From Azospirillum brasilense (GTDB lineage: Bacteria; Pseudomonadota; Alphaproteobacteria; Rickettsiales; UBA3002): a stretch of 64,000 nt of DNA. A model generated the notes under the pieces. It did no database searches. It saw only the letters and a list, made by a program, of their open reading frames with translations, and was not told where the DNA came from. The DNA lies in assembly GCA_003241645.1 (NCBI GenBank), contig QFOX01000004.1, forward strand, positions 183 to 64,182, in the 5' to 3' direction. Numbering within the stretch: position 1 is the stretch's first letter; each line of letters opens with the position of its first letter. Positions 1 through 54,628 of this stretch are shown here, piece by piece. Both the position numbers and the translations under genes were made by a program.

Positions 1-1298
1 GCCACTTCCGGTGCTTCGCCCTGCGCATTCGCGTAGTAACGGCCCATGATGCCCTGAAGCTCAGGGAATTCACCCACCATGCCGGAGGTTAAGTCGGCTT
101 TGCAGAGATGCGCTGCACGACGCACGAAGCGTTTGTCATCCTGAGCAACGCGAAGGATCTCAGCGGATGCTTCGCTACGCTCAGCATGACAAAGCATATC
201 GACCAGCTGGACTGCCAGCTGTTCAATGCGCTGCACTTTCTCGTTCATCATGCCGACCTTGGCGTGGAACACCACGTCGGCCAGTTTTTCGCCCCAGGCT
301 TCCAGCCGGGTGCTCTTGTCCTGCTCCCAGTAGAATGCGCCGTCGCTCAGGCGGGCACGCAGCACGCGGCTGTTCCCGGCGATCACGGCTTTGCCCTCGT
401 CGGCGGTGATCATGTTCGCCACCGCGATGAACTGGTTGGTCAGCGTGCCGCTGGCGTCGCGCAGCGCGAAGTAGCGCTGGTGCACTTTCATTTCCGAAAT
501 CAGCACTTCCGGCGGCAGGCTCAGGAAGCTGGCATCGAACGTGCCGAGCAGCGGCACGGGCCATTCGACGAGGCCGGTCACTTCATCCAGCAGGGCCGGG
601 TCGTTCACCACTTCGAGATTGTGGTGCTTGGCCAGTTGGGTGATCTCGGTGGCGATCCAGTCACGGCGGGTCGCGGCATTCACCACCACATGCGCGGCTT
701 TGAGTTTGTCTTCGTATTCTTCCGCATGGCGCAGGTGGATAGCGCCGGGTGCAAGGAAACGGTGGCCATAGGTGGTGGCCGCCGCCGTCAGGTGGCCGAA
801 TTGCACGGGCACGATGGCGTCATCCAGCAGGCAGGTGATGGCGTGCAGCGGGCGCACCCAGCGCATGGGGCGGGCTTTGCTGTCGCCCCATTGCATGCTT
901 TTCGGCCAGACGAACGCGGTAAGCGCCGCTTCGGCCACTTCTTTGGCCAGCTCGGCCATGGCGCGGCCCTTCTTTTCGATGCGCGCGAAATAGTACCCGT
1001 CGCGCTGCTCGCACTGTTCGGCGGTGAGGCCCACCGCGTTCAGGAAGCCCTGCATGGCCTGCGCGGGCGCACCCACTTTGGGGCCTTTGCGTTCTTCCGA
1101 AATATCGGGCTGCACCAGCGGCAGGCCGAACAGCTGGATGGCCAGATGGCGCGGCGATACGAAGGTCCTGACCTCGCCATGGGCGATGCCTGCTTTTTCA
1201 AATCCGGCGGCAATGAGGCGCTGCAACTGTTCGCACGCGCCGCGCTGCATGCGCGAGGGGATTTCTTCGGAGAAGAGTTCGAGAAGCAGGGTAGCCAT
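1..1298 (-). CDS. glyS: Glycyl-tRNA synthetase beta subunit, N-terminal part (3' end runs off the window start)
   Basis: Not in the ORF track because there is no stop in the window. Reverse translation from the ATG at 1298-1296 reads MATLLLELFSEEIPSRMQRGACEQLQRL..., the canonical GlyS N-terminus. The + ORF 108..1505 is its antisense shadow. Confidence 0.9.
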   Translation of the reverse strand, partial: MATLLLELFSEEIPSRMQRGACEQLQRLIAAGFEKAGIAHGEVRTFVSPRHLAIQLFGLPLVQPDISEERKGPKVGAPAQAMQGFLNAVGLTAEQCEQRDGYYFARIEKKGRAMAELAKEVAEAALTAFVWPKSMQWGDSKARPMRWVRPLHAITCLLDDAIVPVQFGHLTAAATTYGHRFLAPGAIHLRHAEEYEDKLKAAHVVVNAATRRDWIATEITQLAKHHNLEVVNDPALLDEVTGLVEWPVPLLGTFDASFLSLPPEVLISEMKVHQRYFALRDASGTLTNQFIAVANMITADEGKAVIAGNSRVLRARLSDGAFYWEQDKSTRLEAWGEKLADVVFHAKVGMMNEKVQRIEQLAVQLVDMLCHAERSEASAEILRVAQDDKRFVRRAAHLCKADLTSGMVGEFPELQGIMGRYYANAQGEAPEV

Positions 1299-1309
1299 GA
1301 TTATACCTC

Positions 1310-1412
1310 GTCATTCCAGCGGAAGCTGGAATCCATGAATGGGTGTGCGCCTGCGGCGCAGTGCGCATGGATGCCGGATCGGCACGCGCTGCGCGCATTG
1401 GTCCGGCATGAC
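1310..1412. repeat. 103-bp compound hairpin repeat (GTCATYCC...ATGAC family, subtype D)
   Basis: gtcattccagcggaagctggaatccat hairpin, then gcgcagtgcgc, then ggatgccggatcggcacgcgctgcgcgcattggtccggcatgac. Its reverse complement aligns along its whole length with 54522..54628. Confidence 0.85.
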
Positions 1413-10835: not shown

Positions 10836-10984
10836 GTCATCCCGGAACATTTTTCAGGAGAAAAATTTCTCCGGGATCCAGACCTCACGGCGCTCAGCAG
10901 AGCGCCGTCGTCAAAAAAGTCTGCTGACTTTTTTACCGTGGATTCCCCTATGATTTCGCCTGCTGGCGAAATCCGGGGAATGAC
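10836..10984. repeat. 149-bp three-hairpin MITE-like element (family C) between etfB and etfA
   Basis: gtcatcccgg...ccgggatcc hairpin, a central cggcgct/agcgccg hairpin, and gattcccc...ggggaatgac. About 80% identical to 14481..14630. Same architecture as 34136..34283. Confidence 0.85.
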
Positions 10985-14428: not shown

Positions 14429-14480
14429 TCCACTCCTGCATTGAAGTTTGAAGAAAAATCCTCTAACGCTGCGACCCGCC

Positions 14481-14630
14481 GTCATCCTCGAAAAATTTTC
14501 AGCAGAAAATTTCTTCGGGGATCCAGACCACACGATGGCCAGTAGGCCATCGTCGTCAAAAAATATCTTCTGACATTTTTTGCGTGGATTCCCCTATGAT
14601 TTTGCCTGCTGGCAAAATCCGGGGAATGAC
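14481..14630. repeat. 150-bp three-hairpin MITE-like element (family C) upstream of gltX
   Basis: gtcatcctcg...cggggatcc, a central cgatggcc/ggccatcg hairpin (compensatory changes versus the etfBA copy), and gattcccc...ggggaatgac. Confidence 0.85.
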
Positions 14631-14659
14631 GATACGGAAGAGGCCTTAGAGGATTTTTT

Positions 14660-16006
14660 ATGTCGCAAGAGCAAGTATTCGTTCGTTTCGCCCCCAGCCC
14701 CACCGGCTGGCTGCATGTGGGCAACGTGCGCACCGCCCTCATGAACTGGCTGTTCGCCCGCGCGGCGGGTGGCCGCTTCCTGCTGCGTATCGACGATACG
14801 GACACCGTGCGCAGCAAGGCCGAATACGAAGCGGGCCTGAAGACCGACCTGCAATGGCTGGGGCTGGAATGGGACGCGTTCGAGAAGCAATCGCTGCGCT
14901 TTGACCGCTACGAGCTGGCCAAGCAAAAACTCATCGCCGATGGGCGGCTCTACCCGTGCTATGAAACGGCCGAAGAGATCGACATTAAACGCAAAATGCT
15001 GGCCGGTCGCGGCCTGCCGCCGATCTATGACCGCGCCGCGCTGAACGATACGGCCGAGATGCGCGCTGAATACGAAGCGCAGGGCCGCACGCCGCACTGG
15101 CGCTTCAAGCTGGACCATAAACCCATCGTGTGGGACGACATGGTGCGTGGCCGCACCGAGTTCGACGGCGCGAAACTTTCCGACCCCGTGCTGATCCGCG
15201 AAGATGGCGGCGTGCTGTTCACCTTTGCCACCTCGGTGGATGATGGGGAAATGGGCATCACCCACATTATTCGTGGGGAGGACCATGTGTCCAACAGCGC
15301 CATCCAGATCCAGATCATGGAAGCGCTCGGCTTTGCCGCCCCCATCATGGGCCACATGGCGCTGCTGAAAATGAAGGAAGGCAAAATTTCCAAACGCGAA
15401 GGCGGCGGCGATATCAAGTCGCTGCGCGAAGAGGGCATCCTGCCGCTGGCACTGGTGAGCTACCTCGCCAAGATCGGCACGTCCGACGCGATCGATCTCG
15501 CGCCGAGCCTTGAGCAACTGGGCGCGGAATTCGCCATTACCAAGCTGGGCCGCGCCATGGCGAATTACGACCCCGCCGAGCTGGAACGCCTGAACCAGAA
15601 ATTGCTGCACCAGATGGATTTTGCGGCAGTAGAGACGTTACTTGCAGCGCGCAGCGCTGGACATATTACACCCGAATTTTGGACGATGATTCGTGGTAAC
15701 CTGACAAGCCTCGATGAGACAAAAGAATGGTGGACGCTGGTGCAAGAGCCTATCACCCCAACCATCAACGATAAGGAATTCACCGACGTTGCAGCCACCT
15801 TGCTGCCCAGCGGCGAATGGGGCGCAGGCAGCTGGGACGAGTTCGTGGCTGCGGTGAAAGAGAAGACCGGCCGCAAAGGCAAAGAGCTGTTCATGCCGCT
15901 GCGCCTGGCGCTGACCGGCATGGAGCACGGCCCGGAAATTAAGGTGCTGTTCGCCCTGCTGGGTCGTGAGCGCGCGCAAAAACGCCTGATGGGCGAGGCG
16001 GCATAA
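14660..16006 (+). CDS. gltX: Glutamyl-tRNA synthetase
   Basis: VRFAPSPTGWLHVGNVRTAL (HIGH-type) and KISKREGG (KMSKS-type). Confidence 0.95.
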   Translation: MSQEQVFVRFAPSPTGWLHVGNVRTALMNWLFARAAGGRFLLRIDDTDTVRSKAEYEAGLKTDLQWLGLEWDAFEKQSLRFDRYELAKQKLIADGRLYPCYETAEEIDIKRKMLAGRGLPPIYDRAALNDTAEMRAEYEAQGRTPHWRFKLDHKPIVWDDMVRGRTEFDGAKLSDPVLIREDGGVLFTFATSVDDGEMGITHIIRGEDHVSNSAIQIQIMEALGFAAPIMGHMALLKMKEGKISKREGGGDIKSLREEGILPLALVSYLAKIGTSDAIDLAPSLEQLGAEFAITKLGRAMANYDPAELERLNQKLLHQMDFAAVETLLAARSAGHITPEFWTMIRGNLTSLDETKEWWTLVQEPITPTINDKEFTDVAATLLPSGEWGAGSWDEFVAAVKEKTGRKGKELFMPLRLALTGMEHGPEIKVLFALLGRERAQKRLMGEAA

Positions 16007-16011
16007 TGCCC

Positions 16012-16361
16012 GTCATTCCAGCGAAAGCTGGAATCCATGAGGCATGATGCAGCACTCCTACCTGTATATCATGGCAAGCAAGCTGCATGGTACACTCTAC
16101 ATTGGGGTGACCGCCGATTTGGTAAAGCGCGTGTATGAGCATCGTACTGGGATGGTTGCAGGGTTTACCAAGAAATACCACGTGCACATGCTTGTATATT
16201 ATGAGATGCACGAAGATATAACGCAGGCCATCCAGCGCGAAACGCAAATGAAGGCGTGGAAGCGAAGGTGGAAAATTGAACTTATTGAGAAGCAGAATCC
16301 AGCATGGGAAGACCTGTATGCGTCCATTCTCTGATTGGATTCCAGCTTTCGCTGGAATGAC
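16012..16361 (+). mobile_element. Candidate minimal mobile unit: GIY-YIG gene bracketed by perfect 26-bp inverted hairpin repeats
   Basis: 16012-16037 gtcattccagcgaaagctggaatcca and 16336-16361 tggattccagctttcgctggaatgac are exact reverse complements. The unit fills the gltX-cysS gap and its interior is AT-richer. Confidence 0.5.
16044..16334 (+). CDS. GIY-YIG nuclease family protein (YhbQ/UPF0213-like, nuclease domain only)
   Basis: SYLYIMASKLHGTLYIGVTADLVKRVYEHRTG...QRETQMKAWKRRWKIELIE. GIY/YIG, Arg and Glu positions are as in the family. Confidence 0.85.
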   Translation: MMQHSYLYIMASKLHGTLYIGVTADLVKRVYEHRTGMVAGFTKKYHVHMLVYYEMHEDITQAIQRETQMKAWKRRWKIELIEKQNPAWEDLYASIL

Positions 16362-16367
16362 GGTACG

Positions 16368-17750
16368 ATGATCAAACTTTCCAACACCCTGACGCGCGGC
16401 GTGGAGCCGTTTGCCCCACTCGACCCTGCGCATGTAAAAATGTATGTGTGCGGACCGACCGTGTATGCGCGCCCGCATATCGGCAATGCGCGCTCGGTGG
16501 TGGTGTATGACGTGCTGGCGCGGCTGCTGCGCCACGACTTCCCGAAGCTCACCTTCGTGCGCAATATTACGGATGTGGACGATAAAATTAACGCGGCTGC
16601 CATCGAGCGCGGCATCTCCATTCAGGCGCTGACCGACGAGGTGACCGCGCAGTTCCACGCCGATATGGGTGCATTGAATTGCGCCAAGCCGGACGTGGAG
16701 CCCAAAGCCACCGAACACATCGCGCAGATGATCGCGATGATCGAAACGCTCATCGTGCGCGGCCATGCCTATGCAGCGCAGGGCCATGTGCTGTTCGACG
16801 TGCAGAGCAACCCGGATTATGGCGTGCTCAGCCGCCGCAACGCGCGGGACATGATCGCCGGTGCGCGCGTGGAAGTGGCGCCTTACAAAAAATACCCCGG
16901 CGATTTCGTGCTGTGGAAACCCGCCAGCGAGAAAGACGACGCGAGCAGCAAGTTCGACTCGCCATGGGGCGTGGGCCGCCCCGGCTGGCACATCGAATGC
17001 TCTGCCATGAGCGCCACGCATTTGGGCCATGATTTCGACATCCATGGCGGTGGGTCGGACCTGATGTTCCCGCATCATGAGAACGAGATTGCACAAAGCC
17101 GGTGCGCGCATGCGGGCTCGCATTACGCGAAATACTGGGTGCATAACGGCTTTCTTACCGTCAACGGCGAGAAGATGAGCAAGAGCCTCGGCAACTTCAT
17201 CACCGTGCATGATTTGTTGGAGCGCGGCGTGAAGGGCGAGGTGATCCGCTTCGCGCTGCTTTCCACGCGCTACAACGAACCGCTCGATTGGAGCGACAAG
17301 CTGCTCGCCGATGCGGGCAAGGTGATGGATAAGCTCTATCGTAAAACTACCGATGTCATTCCCGCGCAGGCGGGAATCCATGATATAGGCGTGGCAGCGG
17401 AGGCAATCATGGATCCCGGCCTTCGCCGGGATGACGTATCTAAAGAACTTATGGCTGCCTTGCGCGATAACCTGAACACGCCGAAAGCACTGGCCATCCT
17501 GCAAACGCTGGAAGGCGACGAACTGCTGGCTTCAGCCCAGTTCATGGGCCTGCTGCAACAGCCTGCCGACCAATGGTTCCAGGGCGAAGCGGGCGACGAT
17601 GCCGCCGCCATTGAAGCGCAGATCGCCCAACGCAACGCCGCCAAGAAAGCGCGTGACTTCGCCACGGCTGATGCGATCCGCGAGGCGCTGAAGGCGCAGG
17701 GCATCCTGCTCGAAGACGGGCCGCAGGGCACCAGCTGGCGCCGCGCGTAA
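16368..17750 (+). CDS. cysS: Cysteinyl-tRNA synthetase carrying an in-frame repeat insertion
   Basis: MIKLSNTLTRGVEPF..CGPTVYARPHIGNARS (HIGH) and KMSKSLGN. An 81-bp hairpin repeat is translated as VIPAQAGIHDIGVAAEAIMDPGLRRDD. Confidence 0.95.
   Translation: MIKLSNTLTRGVEPFAPLDPAHVKMYVCGPTVYARPHIGNARSVVVYDVLARLLRHDFPKLTFVRNITDVDDKINAAAIERGISIQALTDEVTAQFHADMGALNCAKPDVEPKATEHIAQMIAMIETLIVRGHAYAAQGHVLFDVQSNPDYGVLSRRNARDMIAGARVEVAPYKKYPGDFVLWKPASEKDDASSKFDSPWGVGRPGWHIECSAMSATHLGHDFDIHGGGSDLMFPHHENEIAQSRCAHAGSHYAKYWVHNGFLTVNGEKMSKSLGNFITVHDLLERGVKGEVIRFALLSTRYNEPLDWSDKLLADAGKVMDKLYRKTTDVIPAQAGIHDIGVAAEAIMDPGLRRDDVSKELMAALRDNLNTPKALAILQTLEGDELLASAQFMGLLQQPADQWFQGEAGDDAAAIEAQIAQRNAAKKARDFATADAIREALKAQGILLEDGPQGTSWRRA
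17355..17435 (+). repeat. 81-bp double-hairpin repeat (family D) inside cysS
   Basis: gtcattcccgcgcaggcgggaatccat ... ggatcccggccttcgccgggatgac. Exactly 27 codons. Confidence 0.9.
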
Positions 17751-34135: not shown

Positions 34136-34283
34136 GTCATCCCGGTTTGTGAAGCCAGCAGGCGCTACAACACCGGGATCCAATCAAAAATATCAGGAGA
34201 TATTTTTGAGATGAAAAACGCCTCCTGACGTTTTTCATTGGACCCCGGAGTGACTTCGCTGCTGCTGCGTCATCCGGGGTGAC
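34136..34283. repeat. 148-bp three-hairpin MITE-like element (family C) between purQ and purS
   Basis: gtcatcccggtttgtgaagccagcaggcgctacaacaccgggatcc ... cgtcatccggggtgac. Same modular layout and length as 10836..10984. Confidence 0.8.
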
Positions 34284-42592: not shown

Positions 42593-42638
42593 GCGAAAGC
42601 GGCGCGAAGCATCGCACAGTATGTGCGATCTGCGGAGC
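42593..42638 (+). repeat. Family B hairpin repeat inside rnpB helix P3
   Basis: gcgaaagcggcgcgaagcatcgcacagtatgtgcgatctgcggagc. The stem is atcgcac/gtgcgat. Confidence 0.85.
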
Positions 42639-42765
42639 AAAAAAATCCAACATCTCCCCGAGGAAAGTCCGGGCTCCACGGAACACGGTGGCGGGTAACG
42701 CCCGCCCGGCGCAAGCCGAGAGACAGTGCCACAGAAACAAACCGCCTTTTTCGCGCGGTACTGGC

Positions 42766-42848
42766 GGCAGCGAGGGCAGCAGCCCGAGCGAGCCATCAGC
42801 CCGCGAAGCGGCGCGAAGCATCGCACAGCATGTGCGATTTGCGGAGCA
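42766..42848 (+). repeat. Family B repeat (long form) inside rnpB helix P12
   Basis: ...gcccgagcgagccatcagcccgcgaagcggcgcgaagcatcgcacagcatgtgcgatttgcggagc. The 3' part matches 42593..42638 and the 5' part matches 24722..24754. Confidence 0.85.
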
Positions 42849-43124
42849 CCAATAAGGTAAGGGTGAAAAGGTGGGGTAAGAGCCCACCGCGCCGCTGGTA
42901 ACAGCGTGTGGCCAGGCAAACCTCACCGGGAGCAAGACCAAATAGGCGTGCAGTGGTTCAATCCACGGGCCGTTCCGGGCCGCACGCGGGTAGGTTGCTT
43001 GAGCCATGCAGCAATGCATGGCCTAGATGAATAGCCATCCATCCCAGCAATGGGGGGACAGAACCCGGCTTACAGGCCATCTGGTGTTAACGCTTTGTTC
43101 ATGCGTGGCTGCTAACCTCGGCCT

Positions 43125-54521: not shown

Positions 54522-54628
54522 GTCATCCCGGACCAATGCGCGACGCGCATGCCGATCCGGGATCCATGCGAACTGTGCGCAGCACACAAATAGAGTCATT
54601 AGGAGATTCCTGCGTTCGCAGGAATGAC
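54522..54628. repeat. 107-bp compound hairpin repeat (family D) in the ftsW-murG gap
   Basis: gtcatcccggaccaatgcgcgacgcgcatgccgatccgggatccatgcg...gattcctgcgttcgcaggaatgac. It is the inverted counterpart of 1310..1412. Confidence 0.85.

What the first reader, a model, noticed from the sequence alone, without database searches (positions are those of the whole stretch)
17355..17435. 81-bp double-hairpin repeat (exactly 27 codons) translated inside cysS
CysS reads ...LYRKTTD[VIPAQAGIHDIGVAAEAIMDPGLRRDD]VSKELMAALRDNLNTPKAL. The bracketed part is gtcattcccgcgcaggcgggaatccat...ggatcccggccttcgccgggatgac, a member of the GTCATYCC...GGRATGAC hairpin family. That family otherwise lies between genes at 1310, 10836, 14481, 16012, 34136 and 54522. 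The insertion falls in the variable region before the anticodon-binding domain. Peptides such as VIPAKAGIQ, DSRLRGND and IPAFAGMT also appear in the antisense ORF 15939..17504. I recognise them from memory as recurrent hypothetical-protein artefacts generated by a widespread hairpin repeat. Here one is part of a real, essential protein.
Basis: partly seen in the sequence, partly recalled or inferred. Interest (0 to 1): 0.7.

Follow-up and report, generated by a model that had tools for sequence, protein, structure and literature searches.

The report
Translated palindromic repeat inside cysS
An 81-base selfish DNA palindrome of an already described, widespread repeat family sits in frame inside the essential cysteinyl-tRNA synthetase gene and adds 27 amino acids to a flexible surface loop; this is real, but it is a new example of a known phenomenon.

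Summary
Window 17355-17435 is an 81-bp element made of two inverted 8-bp-stem hairpins. It lies in frame, without stops, in an intact cysS (16368-17750, 460 aa). About 100 of 120 orthologues are 433-446 aa long and lack the 27 residues.

The hairpin is a known repeat. It corresponds to the CGTC-1 REP of Di Nocera et al. 2013, which equals dRS3 in Neisseria and RPE-4/-6 in Rickettsia. It is also the NTS/SRM motif of Chenal et al. 2025, which is bound and cut in single-stranded DNA by the small GIY-YIG nuclease Ssn.

A 96-aa Ssn-like gene flanked by two perfect copies of the motif lies 1 kb upstream (16012-16361).

In-frame REP dimers encoding 20-30 aa in real proteins, tRNA synthetases included, were catalogued in 2013. 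The kind is therefore known, and cysS is a new host gene.

New here:
- The same CysS loop was hit independently in at least three lineages by this family, and in at least three or four by another palindrome family.
- A second translated element sits in glyS (135-194) in the same window.

The insert is predicted to be disordered and is most likely neutral selfish DNA. Mobilisation by Ssn is inferred, not shown.

The parts
17355..17435 (+). 81-bp inverted dimer of CGTC-1/SRM hairpins (a heterodimer). It is translated in frame as CysRS residues 330-356.
17354..17381 (+). Left SRM/NTS unit TGTCATTCCCGCGCAGGCGGGAATCCAT: tag TGTC, 8-bp stem ATTCCCGC, loop GCAG, tail CCA. It contains an exact dRS3 match (17358-17377).
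17409..17436 (-). Right SRM unit CGTCATCCCGGCGAAGGCCGGGATCCAT. Its stem ATCCCGGC differs from the left stem by two compensated pairs.
17382..17408 (+). Spacer of the dimer. Its complementary ends (GAT...ATC) extend the terminal inverted repeat.
16368..17750 (+). cysS, 460 aa, an intact host gene. It is identical to P0001, the NCBI MAG protein labelled 'Azospirillum brasilense'.
16012..16361 (+). SRM-ssnA-SRM cassette filling the gltX-cysS spacer. The first 24 nt of each terminal arm are 100% complementary.
16044..16334 (+). 96-aa single-domain GIY-YIG nuclease gene, Ssn-like (P0121).
135..194 (-). Second translated element: a 56-bp GTCAT...ATGAC palindrome (135-190) inside glyS. The 135-194 stretch around it encodes residues 369-388, LCHAERSEASAEILRVAQDD.
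1..1298 (-). glyS (glycyl-tRNA synthetase beta subunit), N-terminal 432 codons. The gene runs off the left edge of the window.
1310..1412 (+). Intergenic 103-bp family member directly upstream of glyS. It is flanked by the 15-bp direct repeat AAGCAGGGTAGCCAT (1284-1298 and 1421-1435).
10836..10984 (+). Intergenic 149-bp family member with long-stem hairpins.
14481..14630 (+). Intergenic 150-bp family member upstream of gltX. It splits the inverted repeat at 14454-14466 / 14646-14658.
34136..34283 (+). Intergenic 148-bp family member.
54522..54628 (+). Intergenic 107-bp family member.

Best explanation
The 81 bp are a non-autonomous palindromic repeat. The element is an inverted dimer of two CGTC-1 REP / SRM (NTS, dRS3-like) hairpins separated by a short spacer.

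It entered cysS at the loop joining the last helix of the catalytic body to the helical region that precedes the anticodon-binding domain. The copy is a multiple of three, and the frame it occupies is the only stop-free frame of the three on the coding strand. The gene therefore stayed open, and the element is translated as a 27-residue, probably disordered, surface loop.

The insert is most likely neutral selfish DNA that survived because this loop tolerates almost anything. It is probably not an adaptation.

The family is the one that Ssn, a ~95-aa GIY-YIG nuclease, binds and cuts in single-stranded DNA. A motif-flanked ssn-like gene lies 1 kb upstream. The likeliest route of spread is a single-strand, hairpin-dependent process without target-site duplication, in which Ssn takes part.

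What is shown: the identity of the repeat, the insertion status, the intact frame, the loop position and the recurrence. What is inferred: translation, neutrality, and any role of Ssn in mobility.
For: Repeat identity:
- Both arms match the published SRM search pattern, with 3 hits in the window against 0.38 expected.
- The left arm has 2 mismatches to the Neisseria NTS consensus and is an exact dRS3.
- Tag, 8-bp AT-initiated stem, 4-nt loop and CCA tail fit the CGTC-1 definition read.

Insertion status:
- In the 120-orthologue alignment the nearest relatives lack it (P0003/P0004) or carry a different palindrome (P0002).

Recurrence:
- P0023 has an 81-bp homodimer at the same point, and P0034 has a 30-bp remnant.
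- Both sit in separate clades whose closest members lack any insert.

Permissive loop:
- Nearly all internal length variation in CysRS falls at this one position.
- In the AlphaFold2 model, residues 326-353 are coil and residues 332-348 have pLDDT below 50. They lie between helices 310-325 and 359-367.

Intact enzyme:
- All catalytic and zinc residues are present, and Pfam and PDB matches cover the full length.

Association with Ssn:
- A GIY-YIG ORF is flanked by SRM units whose first 24 nt are perfectly complementary.
- The same gene lies directly upstream of cysS in four other lineages, inside mosaic SRM arrays in the three for which DNA was held.

Mobility without target-site duplication:
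- The orthologous gltX-cysS spacer shows presence or absence of elements.
- Two 70-bp copies differing by 1 nt sit in different flanks in L128.
- 121 metagenomic dimers show no flanking direct repeats, only C at position -1.

Precedent:
- Intragenic CGTC-1 dimers of 20-30 aa occur in glyS, ileS, dnaE2 and truB.
Against: - No expression or proteomic data show that the 27 residues are actually made.
- A second cysS elsewhere in the genome cannot be excluded from a 64-kb window.
- The event was not a clean 81-bp addition. In both filled alleles the native 7-8-residue linker is reduced to 2-3 residues. The two alleles also share flanks (GAT before, GTMTCTAAAGA after) that their close relatives lack. 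A simple cut-and-paste insertion does not explain this.
- Ssn is shown in the literature only to bind and cut single-stranded DNA and to modulate transformation. Transposition has never been shown.
- Only 1 of 120 metagenomic dimer loci had an ssn gene nearby. This is expected for a trans-acting enzyme and gives no support.
Confidence: 0.85

Rival explanations
1. The insert has been co-opted. Either the 27-residue loop gives CysRS a new interaction or regulatory surface, or the -47 kcal/mol mRNA hairpin tunes cysS translation or mRNA stability.
For: - The hairpins are kept perfect by two compensated stem differences between the arms.
- The RNA fold is strong.
- The same loop carries inserts in many lineages.
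Against: - The spacer differs almost completely between the two 81-bp alleles, and the third allele has decayed to 30 bp. There is therefore no protein-level conservation.
- Unrelated palindrome families occupy the same loop, which fits tolerance rather than function.
- The model gives no structure for the insert.
- Perfect stems are equally explained by the arms coming from different source copies. Such heterodimers are described.
Confidence: 0.07
2. This cysS is a decaying or non-functional copy, and another cysS does the work.
For: Only 64 kb of the genome is visible. Repeats often accumulate in dispensable DNA.
Against: - The 460-codon ORF is open, with every conserved catalytic and zinc residue.
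- It is 88% identical to its nearest relative (92% over the gap-trimmed core), and the gltX-cysS neighbourhood is conserved.
- Equivalent inserts occur in the only visible glyS and in single-copy genes of other species.
Confidence: 0.04
3. The loop allele, meaning the element plus a few flanking codons, was acquired by short-patch recombination with foreign cysS DNA rather than by transposition into the resident gene.
For: - The window and L002 alleles share GAT|element|GTMTCTAAAGA. Both have the same 81-bp length and the unique residues D...VSK, which their close relatives lack.
- dRS3/NIME arrays are proposed recombination substrates in Neisseria.
- NTS/Ssn acts on transforming DNA.
Against: - No wider tract of raised identity surrounds the element (sliding comparison).
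- The 25-nt spacers are unrelated.
- 10 matches in 12 flanking bases is not significant on its own, given 73% overall DNA identity.
Confidence: 0.12
4. Assembly artefact: a repeat wrongly joined into cysS in a metagenome-assembled genome.
For: The contig comes from a metagenome-assembled genome.
Against: - 81 bp is shorter than a sequencing read, and the frame and flanks are seamless.
- Independent samples give equivalent in-frame alleles in L002 and L003.
Confidence: 0.02

Closest known systems
CGTC-1 REP dimers, including intragenic ones (Di Nocera, De Gregorio & Rocco 2013, PMC3733652)
   Same: - The unit anatomy is the same: CGTC/TGTC tag, 8-bp stem beginning AT, 4-nt loop, CCA tail.
- The hosts are mainly alphaproteobacteria.
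- The units form inverted dimers whose spacers have complementary ends, and heterodimers occur.
- Intragenic dimers encode 20-30 aa in real proteins such as glyS beta, ileS, dnaE2 and truB.
   Different: - cysS is not in their list of host genes.
- They found insertion sites to differ between species, except in Xanthomonas recB. Here one CysRS loop is hit repeatedly.
- They found no dedicated enzyme for the family.
NTS / SRM repeats and the Ssn GIY-YIG single-strand nuclease (Chenal et al. 2025, PMC11893778)
   Same: - The motif is the same: 26 of 28 positions of the Neisseria NTS consensus.
- The SRM-ssn-SRM gene architecture is the same.
- The nuclease is a small single-domain GIY-YIG protein.
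   Different: - In N. meningitidis only 2% of NTS lie inside genes, and in-frame translation is not discussed.
- The demonstrated role is restriction of transforming single-stranded DNA, not mobility.
- The host here is an uncultured alphaproteobacterium with 62% G+C.
Rickettsia palindromic elements (RPE; Ogata et al. 2000, 2002, as summarised in PMC10969869)
   Same: - Palindromic selfish DNA is inserted in frame into unrelated housekeeping genes, at positions judged compatible with the protein fold.
- RPE-4 and RPE-6 are CGTC REPs.
   Different: - Classical RPE-1 is about 150 bp long and has its own conserved peptide.
- The host here is not Rickettsia.
- Homology to the numbered RPE consensus sequences was not tested.
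Neisserial intergenic mosaic elements (dRS3-RS-dRS3; Bentley et al. 2007, PMC1797815)
   Same: - Two inverted 20-bp dRS3-type palindromes flank a short spacer.
- Mosaic arrays of such units surround ssn upstream of cysS in relatives.
   Different: NIMEs are defined as intergenic and were described as specific to Neisseria. This unit is intragenic and translated.
REP/BIME with RAYT, and IS200/IS605 'peel and paste' elements
   Same: - Hairpin repeats are recognised as single-stranded DNA.
- There is no target-site duplication.
- One enzyme gene flanked by its own repeats coexists with many orphan repeats.
   Different: - The enzyme fold is unrelated (GIY-YIG, not an HUH tyrosine transposase).
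- Transposition has not been demonstrated for Ssn.

Membership tests
CGTC-1 REP (Di Nocera 2013) | Unpaired terminal tag CGTC (or TGTC) | tested here: met
   The left arm has TGTC at 17354-17357. The right arm has CGTC on the minus strand at 17436-17433. The definition was read.
CGTC-1 REP (Di Nocera 2013) | 8-bp stem beginning with A-T, 4-nt loop, CCA tail | tested here: met
   The left unit is ATTCCCGC-GCAG-GCGGGAAT-CCA and the right unit is ATCCCGGC-GAAG-GCCGGGAT-CCA.
CGTC-1 REP (Di Nocera 2013) | Repeated family in the genome, mostly as inverted dimers | tested here: met
   The 64-kb window holds eight GTCAT...ATGAC-bounded elements.
SRM / NTS (Chenal 2025) | Match to the published degenerate SRM search sequence | tested here: met
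   Both arms match. The window has 3 hits against 0.38 expected.
SRM / NTS (Chenal 2025) | Genome also carries an ssn homologue flanked by the motif | tested here: met
   The GIY-YIG ORF at 16044-16334 has NTS-like units at 16011-16038 (+) and 16335-16362 (-).
SRM / NTS (Chenal 2025) | Bound and cut by the cognate Ssn as single-stranded DNA, in one orientation only | not testable with these tools
   This needs purified protein and oligonucleotides.
Ssn nuclease family (cd10448), for ORF 16044-16334 | Single GIY-YIG domain, about 94 aa, with no extra DNA-binding domain | tested here: met
   The protein is 96 aa. Pfam GIY-YIG covers residues 5-78 (E 1.6e-14) and nothing else matches. Homologues are 93-113 aa.
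Ssn nuclease family (cd10448), for ORF 16044-16334 | Assignment to CDD cd10448, or blastp E<1e-10 to N. meningitidis SsnA | not testable with these tools
   Neither CDD nor the Neisseria sequence was available. NCBIfam gave nothing above threshold. PDB gave only the distant UPF0213 proteins.
Rickettsia palindromic elements | Palindromic repeat inserted in frame in a housekeeping gene without breaking it | tested here: met
Rickettsia palindromic elements | Sequence homology to one of the numbered RPE families, in a Rickettsia genome | not tested
   No RPE consensus sequences were held. The link is indirect: the paper states RPE-4/-6 = CGTC-4/-1. The host is not Rickettsia (62% G+C).
Neisserial intergenic mosaic element | dRS3 (ATTCCCN8GGGAAT) inverted repeats flanking a 19-214-bp RS | tested here: inconclusive
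   The left arm is an exact dRS3. The right arm is the variant ATCCCGGC...GCCGGGAT. The spacer between the palindromes is 35 bp.
Neisserial intergenic mosaic element | Intergenic location | tested here: not met
   The element lies inside cysS, in frame.
Classical IS-derived MITE | Target-site duplication flanking terminal inverted repeats | tested here: not met
   No direct repeat flanks the cysS copy. None flanks the 121 metagenomic dimers either, which show only C at position -1 in 74% of ends.
Classical IS-derived MITE | Ends shared with an IS that encodes a DDE, serine or tyrosine transposase | tested here: not met
   The only gene with the same ends is a GIY-YIG nuclease.

The most novel reading that the evidence does not exclude
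The CysRS loop (and the GlyRS-beta loop) may be a true insertion target rather than merely the one tolerant place. On this reading, hairpin repeats of at least two unrelated families home to the same few nucleotides through a single-strand, structure-directed mechanism. For the CGTC/SRM family, Ssn would be the long-missing mobilising enzyme, making SRM-ssn-SRM the first bacterial transposon-like element driven by a GIY-YIG nuclease.
Probability: 0.15. Interest if true: 0.65.

Novelty: new member of a known kind. Interest (0 to 1): 0.3.

Why it matters
**What this locus adds**
- It adds cysS to the list of essential genes that carry translated palindromic repeats.
- Two tRNA-synthetase genes in one 64-kb stretch are affected in a free-living-type, high-G+C alphaproteobacterium. 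The 'Rickettsia' phenomenon is therefore general for this repeat family.
- It places side by side two literatures that the paper search found unconnected: protein-coding palindromes (RPE, intragenic REPs) and the Ssn nuclease with its motif. The putative enzyme gene lies 1 kb from a translated copy.

**Practical points**
- The locus is a warning for annotation. The same hairpins generate the VIPAKAGIQ, DSRLRGND and IPAFAGMT 'hypothetical proteins' and a 521-codon antisense ORF.
- The repeatedly hit CysRS loop marks a site where foreign peptide can probably be inserted without killing the enzyme.

Tried and rejected
- **First pattern search.** It used a fixed 11-nt spacer and missed most copies. 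A regex scan replaced it.
- **Scan of one genome per species with CysRS.** It gave neither the taxonomy nor a test for a second cysS. Almost none of those 80 loci held SRM units.
- **Exact look-up of the window's own CysRS.** It found no record, so no called-gene table exists for the contig.
- **Protein search with the insert peptide.** It needed at least 40 aa, so the two alleles were joined into one query. It returned only 33-94-aa domain-less hypothetical proteins. This supports the 'artefact ORF' memory but says nothing about how many real proteins carry such inserts. It did not even return P0001 or P0023.
- **In-frame bias among metagenomic copies.** None was found (lengths mod 3 = 44/60/17 for 0/1/2). 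Of 22 long ORFs spanning an element, the 12 with in-frame element lengths were read. Only one, a DnaE2-type polymerase in L118, was a real gene.
- **A conserved target or hidden longer element ends.** Flanks of 235 ends show only C at -1 and a weaker C at -2. The TCTAAAGA flank shared by the two cysS alleles is not a family feature.
- **A recombination tract around the element.** None was seen.
- **Rfam.** No RNA family matches the element. The only hit in the window is RNase P.
- **DNA for two further insert-bearing CysRS genes, P0044 and P0071.** It was not available.
- **Literature.** No paper in the library holds both 'Rickettsia palindromic' and 'GIY-YIG'.
Full report
**Observation**

GTCATTCCCGCGCAGGCGGGAATCCATGATATAGGCGTGGCAGCGGAGGCAATCATGGATCCCGGCCTTCGCCGGGATGAC

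- It is 81 bp long and lies in the frame of the long plus-strand ORF 16335-17750.
- The biological start of that ORF is the ATG at 16368, which gives a 460-aa protein.
- Pfam finds the class I CysRS catalytic domain at residues 15-316 and the CysS_C anticodon-binding domain at 413-458.
- E. coli CysRS (1li5/1u0b) aligns end to end at E 5e-128.
- The element has two 30-nt arms that are 83% complementary. Each arm contains a perfect 8-bp hairpin.
- It folds much better than shuffled sequence, both as DNA (z -3.7) and as RNA (-46.9 kcal/mol, z -4.85).
That ORF is a mechanical product of a 62% G+C sequence.

**The 27 residues are an insertion**

A search gave 8000 CysRS relatives. The best 120 are 67-100% identical to the window protein, and most are 433-446 aa long. 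Three results follow from aligning them.

- The loop between ...LYR and ...ALRDNLNTP is 7-9 residues in most of the 120.
- The two nearest relatives with DNA in hand show what an unoccupied loop looks like. L004 (85% identity) has KLYRK-LGSAEEGA-VNAELL. L005 has RLYRA-SSEQAGA-VNLGVL.
- Nearly all internal length variation in the family falls at this one position. A minor second site lies near residue 186.

An AlphaFold2 model built on 60 homologues (mean pLDDT 84.6) places the insert in a coil. Residues 332-348 have pLDDT below 50, and the coil lies between helices 310-325 and 359-367. From memory of the E. coli structure, this is the start of the helical-bundle region that follows the stem-contact fold. 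I did not verify those domain names.

The enzyme looks intact. The zinc ligands C28, C211, H236 and E240 (ligand assignment from memory of E. coli CysRS) are invariant, and the HIGH and KMSKS motifs are present and mostly invariant (H37, G39, N40; K269, M270, K272, S273).

**What the repeat is**

The hairpin belongs to a published family.

- Chenal et al. 2025 define the Neisseria Transformation Sequence as CGTCATTCCCGCGMAVGCGGGAATCYRG. They also give a degenerate 'Ssn-related motif' (SRM).
- The left arm differs from the Neisseria consensus at 2 of 28 positions.
- The left arm contains an exact dRS3, ATTCCCN8GGGAAT.
- The SRM pattern hits the window three times against 0.38 expected. Two of the hits are the arms of the cysS element, and the third is at 16011.
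- Di Nocera et al. 2013 had earlier described the same units as CGTC-1 REPs. The definition is a CGTC or TGTC tag, an 8-bp stem starting A-T, a 4-nt loop and a CCA tail.
- They found these units mostly in alphaproteobacteria and mostly as inverted dimers. They equate them to dRS3 in Neisseria and to RPE-6/RPE-4 in Rickettsia conorii.
- Every one of those features is present in both arms.
- The two stems differ at two base pairs, and both differences are compensated. In their terms the element is a 'heterodimer' whose spacer has complementary ends.

**The neighbouring enzyme gene**

- The first 24 nt of the two arms are 100% complementary.
- Together they enclose a 96-aa ORF (16044-16334) that is a single GIY-YIG domain.
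- This is the NTS-ssnA-NTS architecture that defines the Ssn family. Ssn is a small nuclease that binds the motif and cuts just upstream of it, only in single-stranded DNA and only in one orientation.
- Homologues of the window protein are 93-113 aa long and occur in many phyla at 60-79% identity.
- I could not test assignment to cd10448 or similarity to the Neisseria protein.

The cassette fills the gltX-cysS spacer. The same gene sits directly upstream of cysS in four other lineages whose CysRS is 72-77% identical. In the three for which DNA was held it lies within mosaic arrays of SRM-bounded modules, two of which carry an extra passenger ORF. In closer relatives the picture differs. L001 holds a different 87-bp GTCATTGCGAG... 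dimer at that spot, while L004 and L005 have gltX and cysS abutting.

**Recurrence**

A neighbour-joining tree of the 120 proteins, with insert columns removed, separates the three SRM-bearing alleles.

| Allele | Insert at the loop | Closest relatives |
|---|---|---|
| Window protein | 81-bp SRM heterodimer | P0002 carries a different palindrome there; P0003 and P0004 have none |
| P0023 (L002) | 81-bp SRM homodimer with an unrelated spacer | P0116 (89% identity over the trimmed core) has none |
| P0034 (L003) | 30-bp remnant GTCATGCCAGCCGGCCTGCGCCGGGATGAC | P0094 has no insert at this loop |

The palindrome in P0002 has a different architecture. Two CCTCCCCCTYSAAGGGGGAGG hairpins sit inside a 34-nt inverted repeat. 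Its peptide signature (PSPRRGEDGRG...PPNLPLxGGG) recurs in P0014 and P0071, with related peptides in P0055 and P0078, spread over three or four clades.

The loop has therefore been occupied independently at least six or seven times. Di Nocera et al. reported that intragenic REPs in functionally related genes usually sit at different sites. The concentration seen here is an incremental new point.

**A second translated element in the window**

The minus-strand gene starting at 1298 is glyS, the GlyRS beta subunit (PDB 8ie2_H, E 5e-67).

- The 56-bp GTCAT...ATGAC palindrome at 135-190 lies inside it, in frame. The stretch 135-194 around it encodes residues 369-388, LCHAERSEASAEILRVAQDD.
- Fifty representatives have about 5 residues there. 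The closest one, at 67% identity, is about 15 residues shorter at this point.
- One representative, P0305, carries an SRM-type peptide, VTPAKAGVQ...GLRRHDD, at the same place.
- The 2013 catalogue lists a CGTC-1 dimer in Erythrobacter litoralis glyS beta at residues 398-423. It also lists dimers in ileS, dnaE2 and truB, but none in cysS.

So 2 of the 8 bounded elements in this window are translated. In N. meningitidis, by comparison, 2% of NTS lie inside genes.

**Wider sampling**

- Lengths fall into classes of 69/70, 77/78, 82-84 and 90/91 bp, with no in-frame bias.
- The base before GTCAT is C in 74% of ends. No target-site duplication is visible.
- Two copies differing by 1 nt lie 2.8 kb apart in different flanks in L128, which indicates recent spread.
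- Only one element was clearly inside a real gene. It is an in-frame SRM array between the PHP and polymerase domains of a DnaE2-type enzyme in L118. That gene class had already been noted in 2013.
- Only one locus had an ssn gene within reach.

**Mechanism**

Shown:
- the identity of the repeat;
- that it is an insertion;
- that the host frame and catalytic residues are intact;
- that the site is a disordered, hypervariable loop;
- that insertion there is recurrent.

Inferred:
- that the 27 residues are made;
- that they are neutral;
- that spread uses single-stranded hairpin DNA with Ssn taking part. This is suggested by the IS-like cassette, by the absence of target duplications and by analogy with REP/RAYT and IS200/IS605. 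The Ssn authors raise it only as a hypothesis.

The element is open in only one of the three frames on the coding strand. Its survival therefore reflects a selection filter. Its GC3 of 63%, against 76% for the rest of the gene, fits foreign origin.

**Unexplained**

In both 81-bp alleles the native 7-8-residue linker has shrunk to 2-3 residues. The alleles also share GAT before the element and GTMTCTAAAGA after it, including a lysine codon found in no relative. There is no wider recombination tract, and this flank is not a family feature. The possible readings are a local target, a longer mobile unit, short-patch transfer, or chance. They remain open.

**Verdict**

The phenomenon is already described: intragenic CGTC REP dimers encoding 20-30 aa in 2013, RPEs in 2000, and the Ssn/SRM association in 2025. 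This is a new host gene and a clear example, with a modest new point about a recurrent insertion loop. I rate interest at 0.3.

Noticed in passing
window 135-194 (minus strand), within glyS 1-1298: A second translated palindrome. A 56-bp GTCAT...ATGAC element lies in frame in the glycyl-tRNA synthetase beta gene and lengthens a loop that is about 5 residues in 50 representatives by about 15 residues. Another lineage (P0305) has an SRM-type peptide at the same loop.
   Followed up: yes
It fills the whole gltX-cysS spacer. The same gene directly precedes cysS in at least four other lineages (L086, L087, L088/L089 and the contig of P0071).
   Followed up: yes
window 1284-1298 and 1421-1435: The 103-bp element at 1310-1412 is bracketed by a 15-bp direct repeat, AAGCAGGGTAGCCAT. 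This repeat is the glyS start-codon region, duplicated. The distal copy lies next to an in-strand TAA that looks like the stop of the upstream minus-strand gene. The proximal copy has a new GAGG ribosome-binding site, as if the gene start was rebuilt after insertion.
   Followed up: partly
window 14454-14466 and 14646-14658: The 150-bp element at 14481-14630 splits a terminator-like inverted repeat, AAAAATCCTCTAA / TTAGAGGATTTTT. Several metagenomic copies (L100, L133, L118) are likewise flanked by inverted repeats, which hints at insertion into hairpin-forming sites.
   Followed up: partly
L001 5087-5181: The sister CysRS (P0002) carries a different palindromic element at the same loop: CCTCCCCCTYSAAGGGGGAGG hairpins encoding ...GEDGRG...PPNLPLQGGG. 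The same peptide signature recurs in P0014 and P0071, and related peptides occur in P0055 and P0078.
   Followed up: partly
L001 4021-4105: The gltX-cysS spacer of the closest relative with context holds an 85-bp dimer of a third hairpin variant, GTCATTGCGAG...CTCGCAATGAC. The gene caller absorbed it into a 498-aa CysRS as a false N-terminal extension.
   Followed up: no
L087 2922-3224 and L088 722-1033: A conserved ORF of about 100 aa with no Pfam hit is carried as a separate SRM-bounded module next to ssn. It may be a passenger gene of the mosaic array.
   Followed up: no
L118 1700-2100 (minus strand): A DnaE2-type polymerase carries an in-frame array of one SRM dimer plus further half-units between its PHP and polymerase domains. 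The array is bracketed by an 18-bp inverted repeat (GTAGAGACCCGTCTCGTA...).
   Followed up: partly
CysRS proteins P0044, P0088, P0096 and P0092, P0119, P0120: Two further kinds of insert occupy the same CysRS loop: GGVIGDLLLFGAKPSP-like peptides in three separate clades, and acidic, cysteine-rich peptides (..EEDEDG..GCCGGG..) in one clade. No DNA was available to tell whether these derive from repeats.
   Followed up: no
window 42616-43088: Bacterial RNase P RNA class A (Rfam RF00010, 259.8 bits). This was the only Rfam hit in the window.
   Followed up: no
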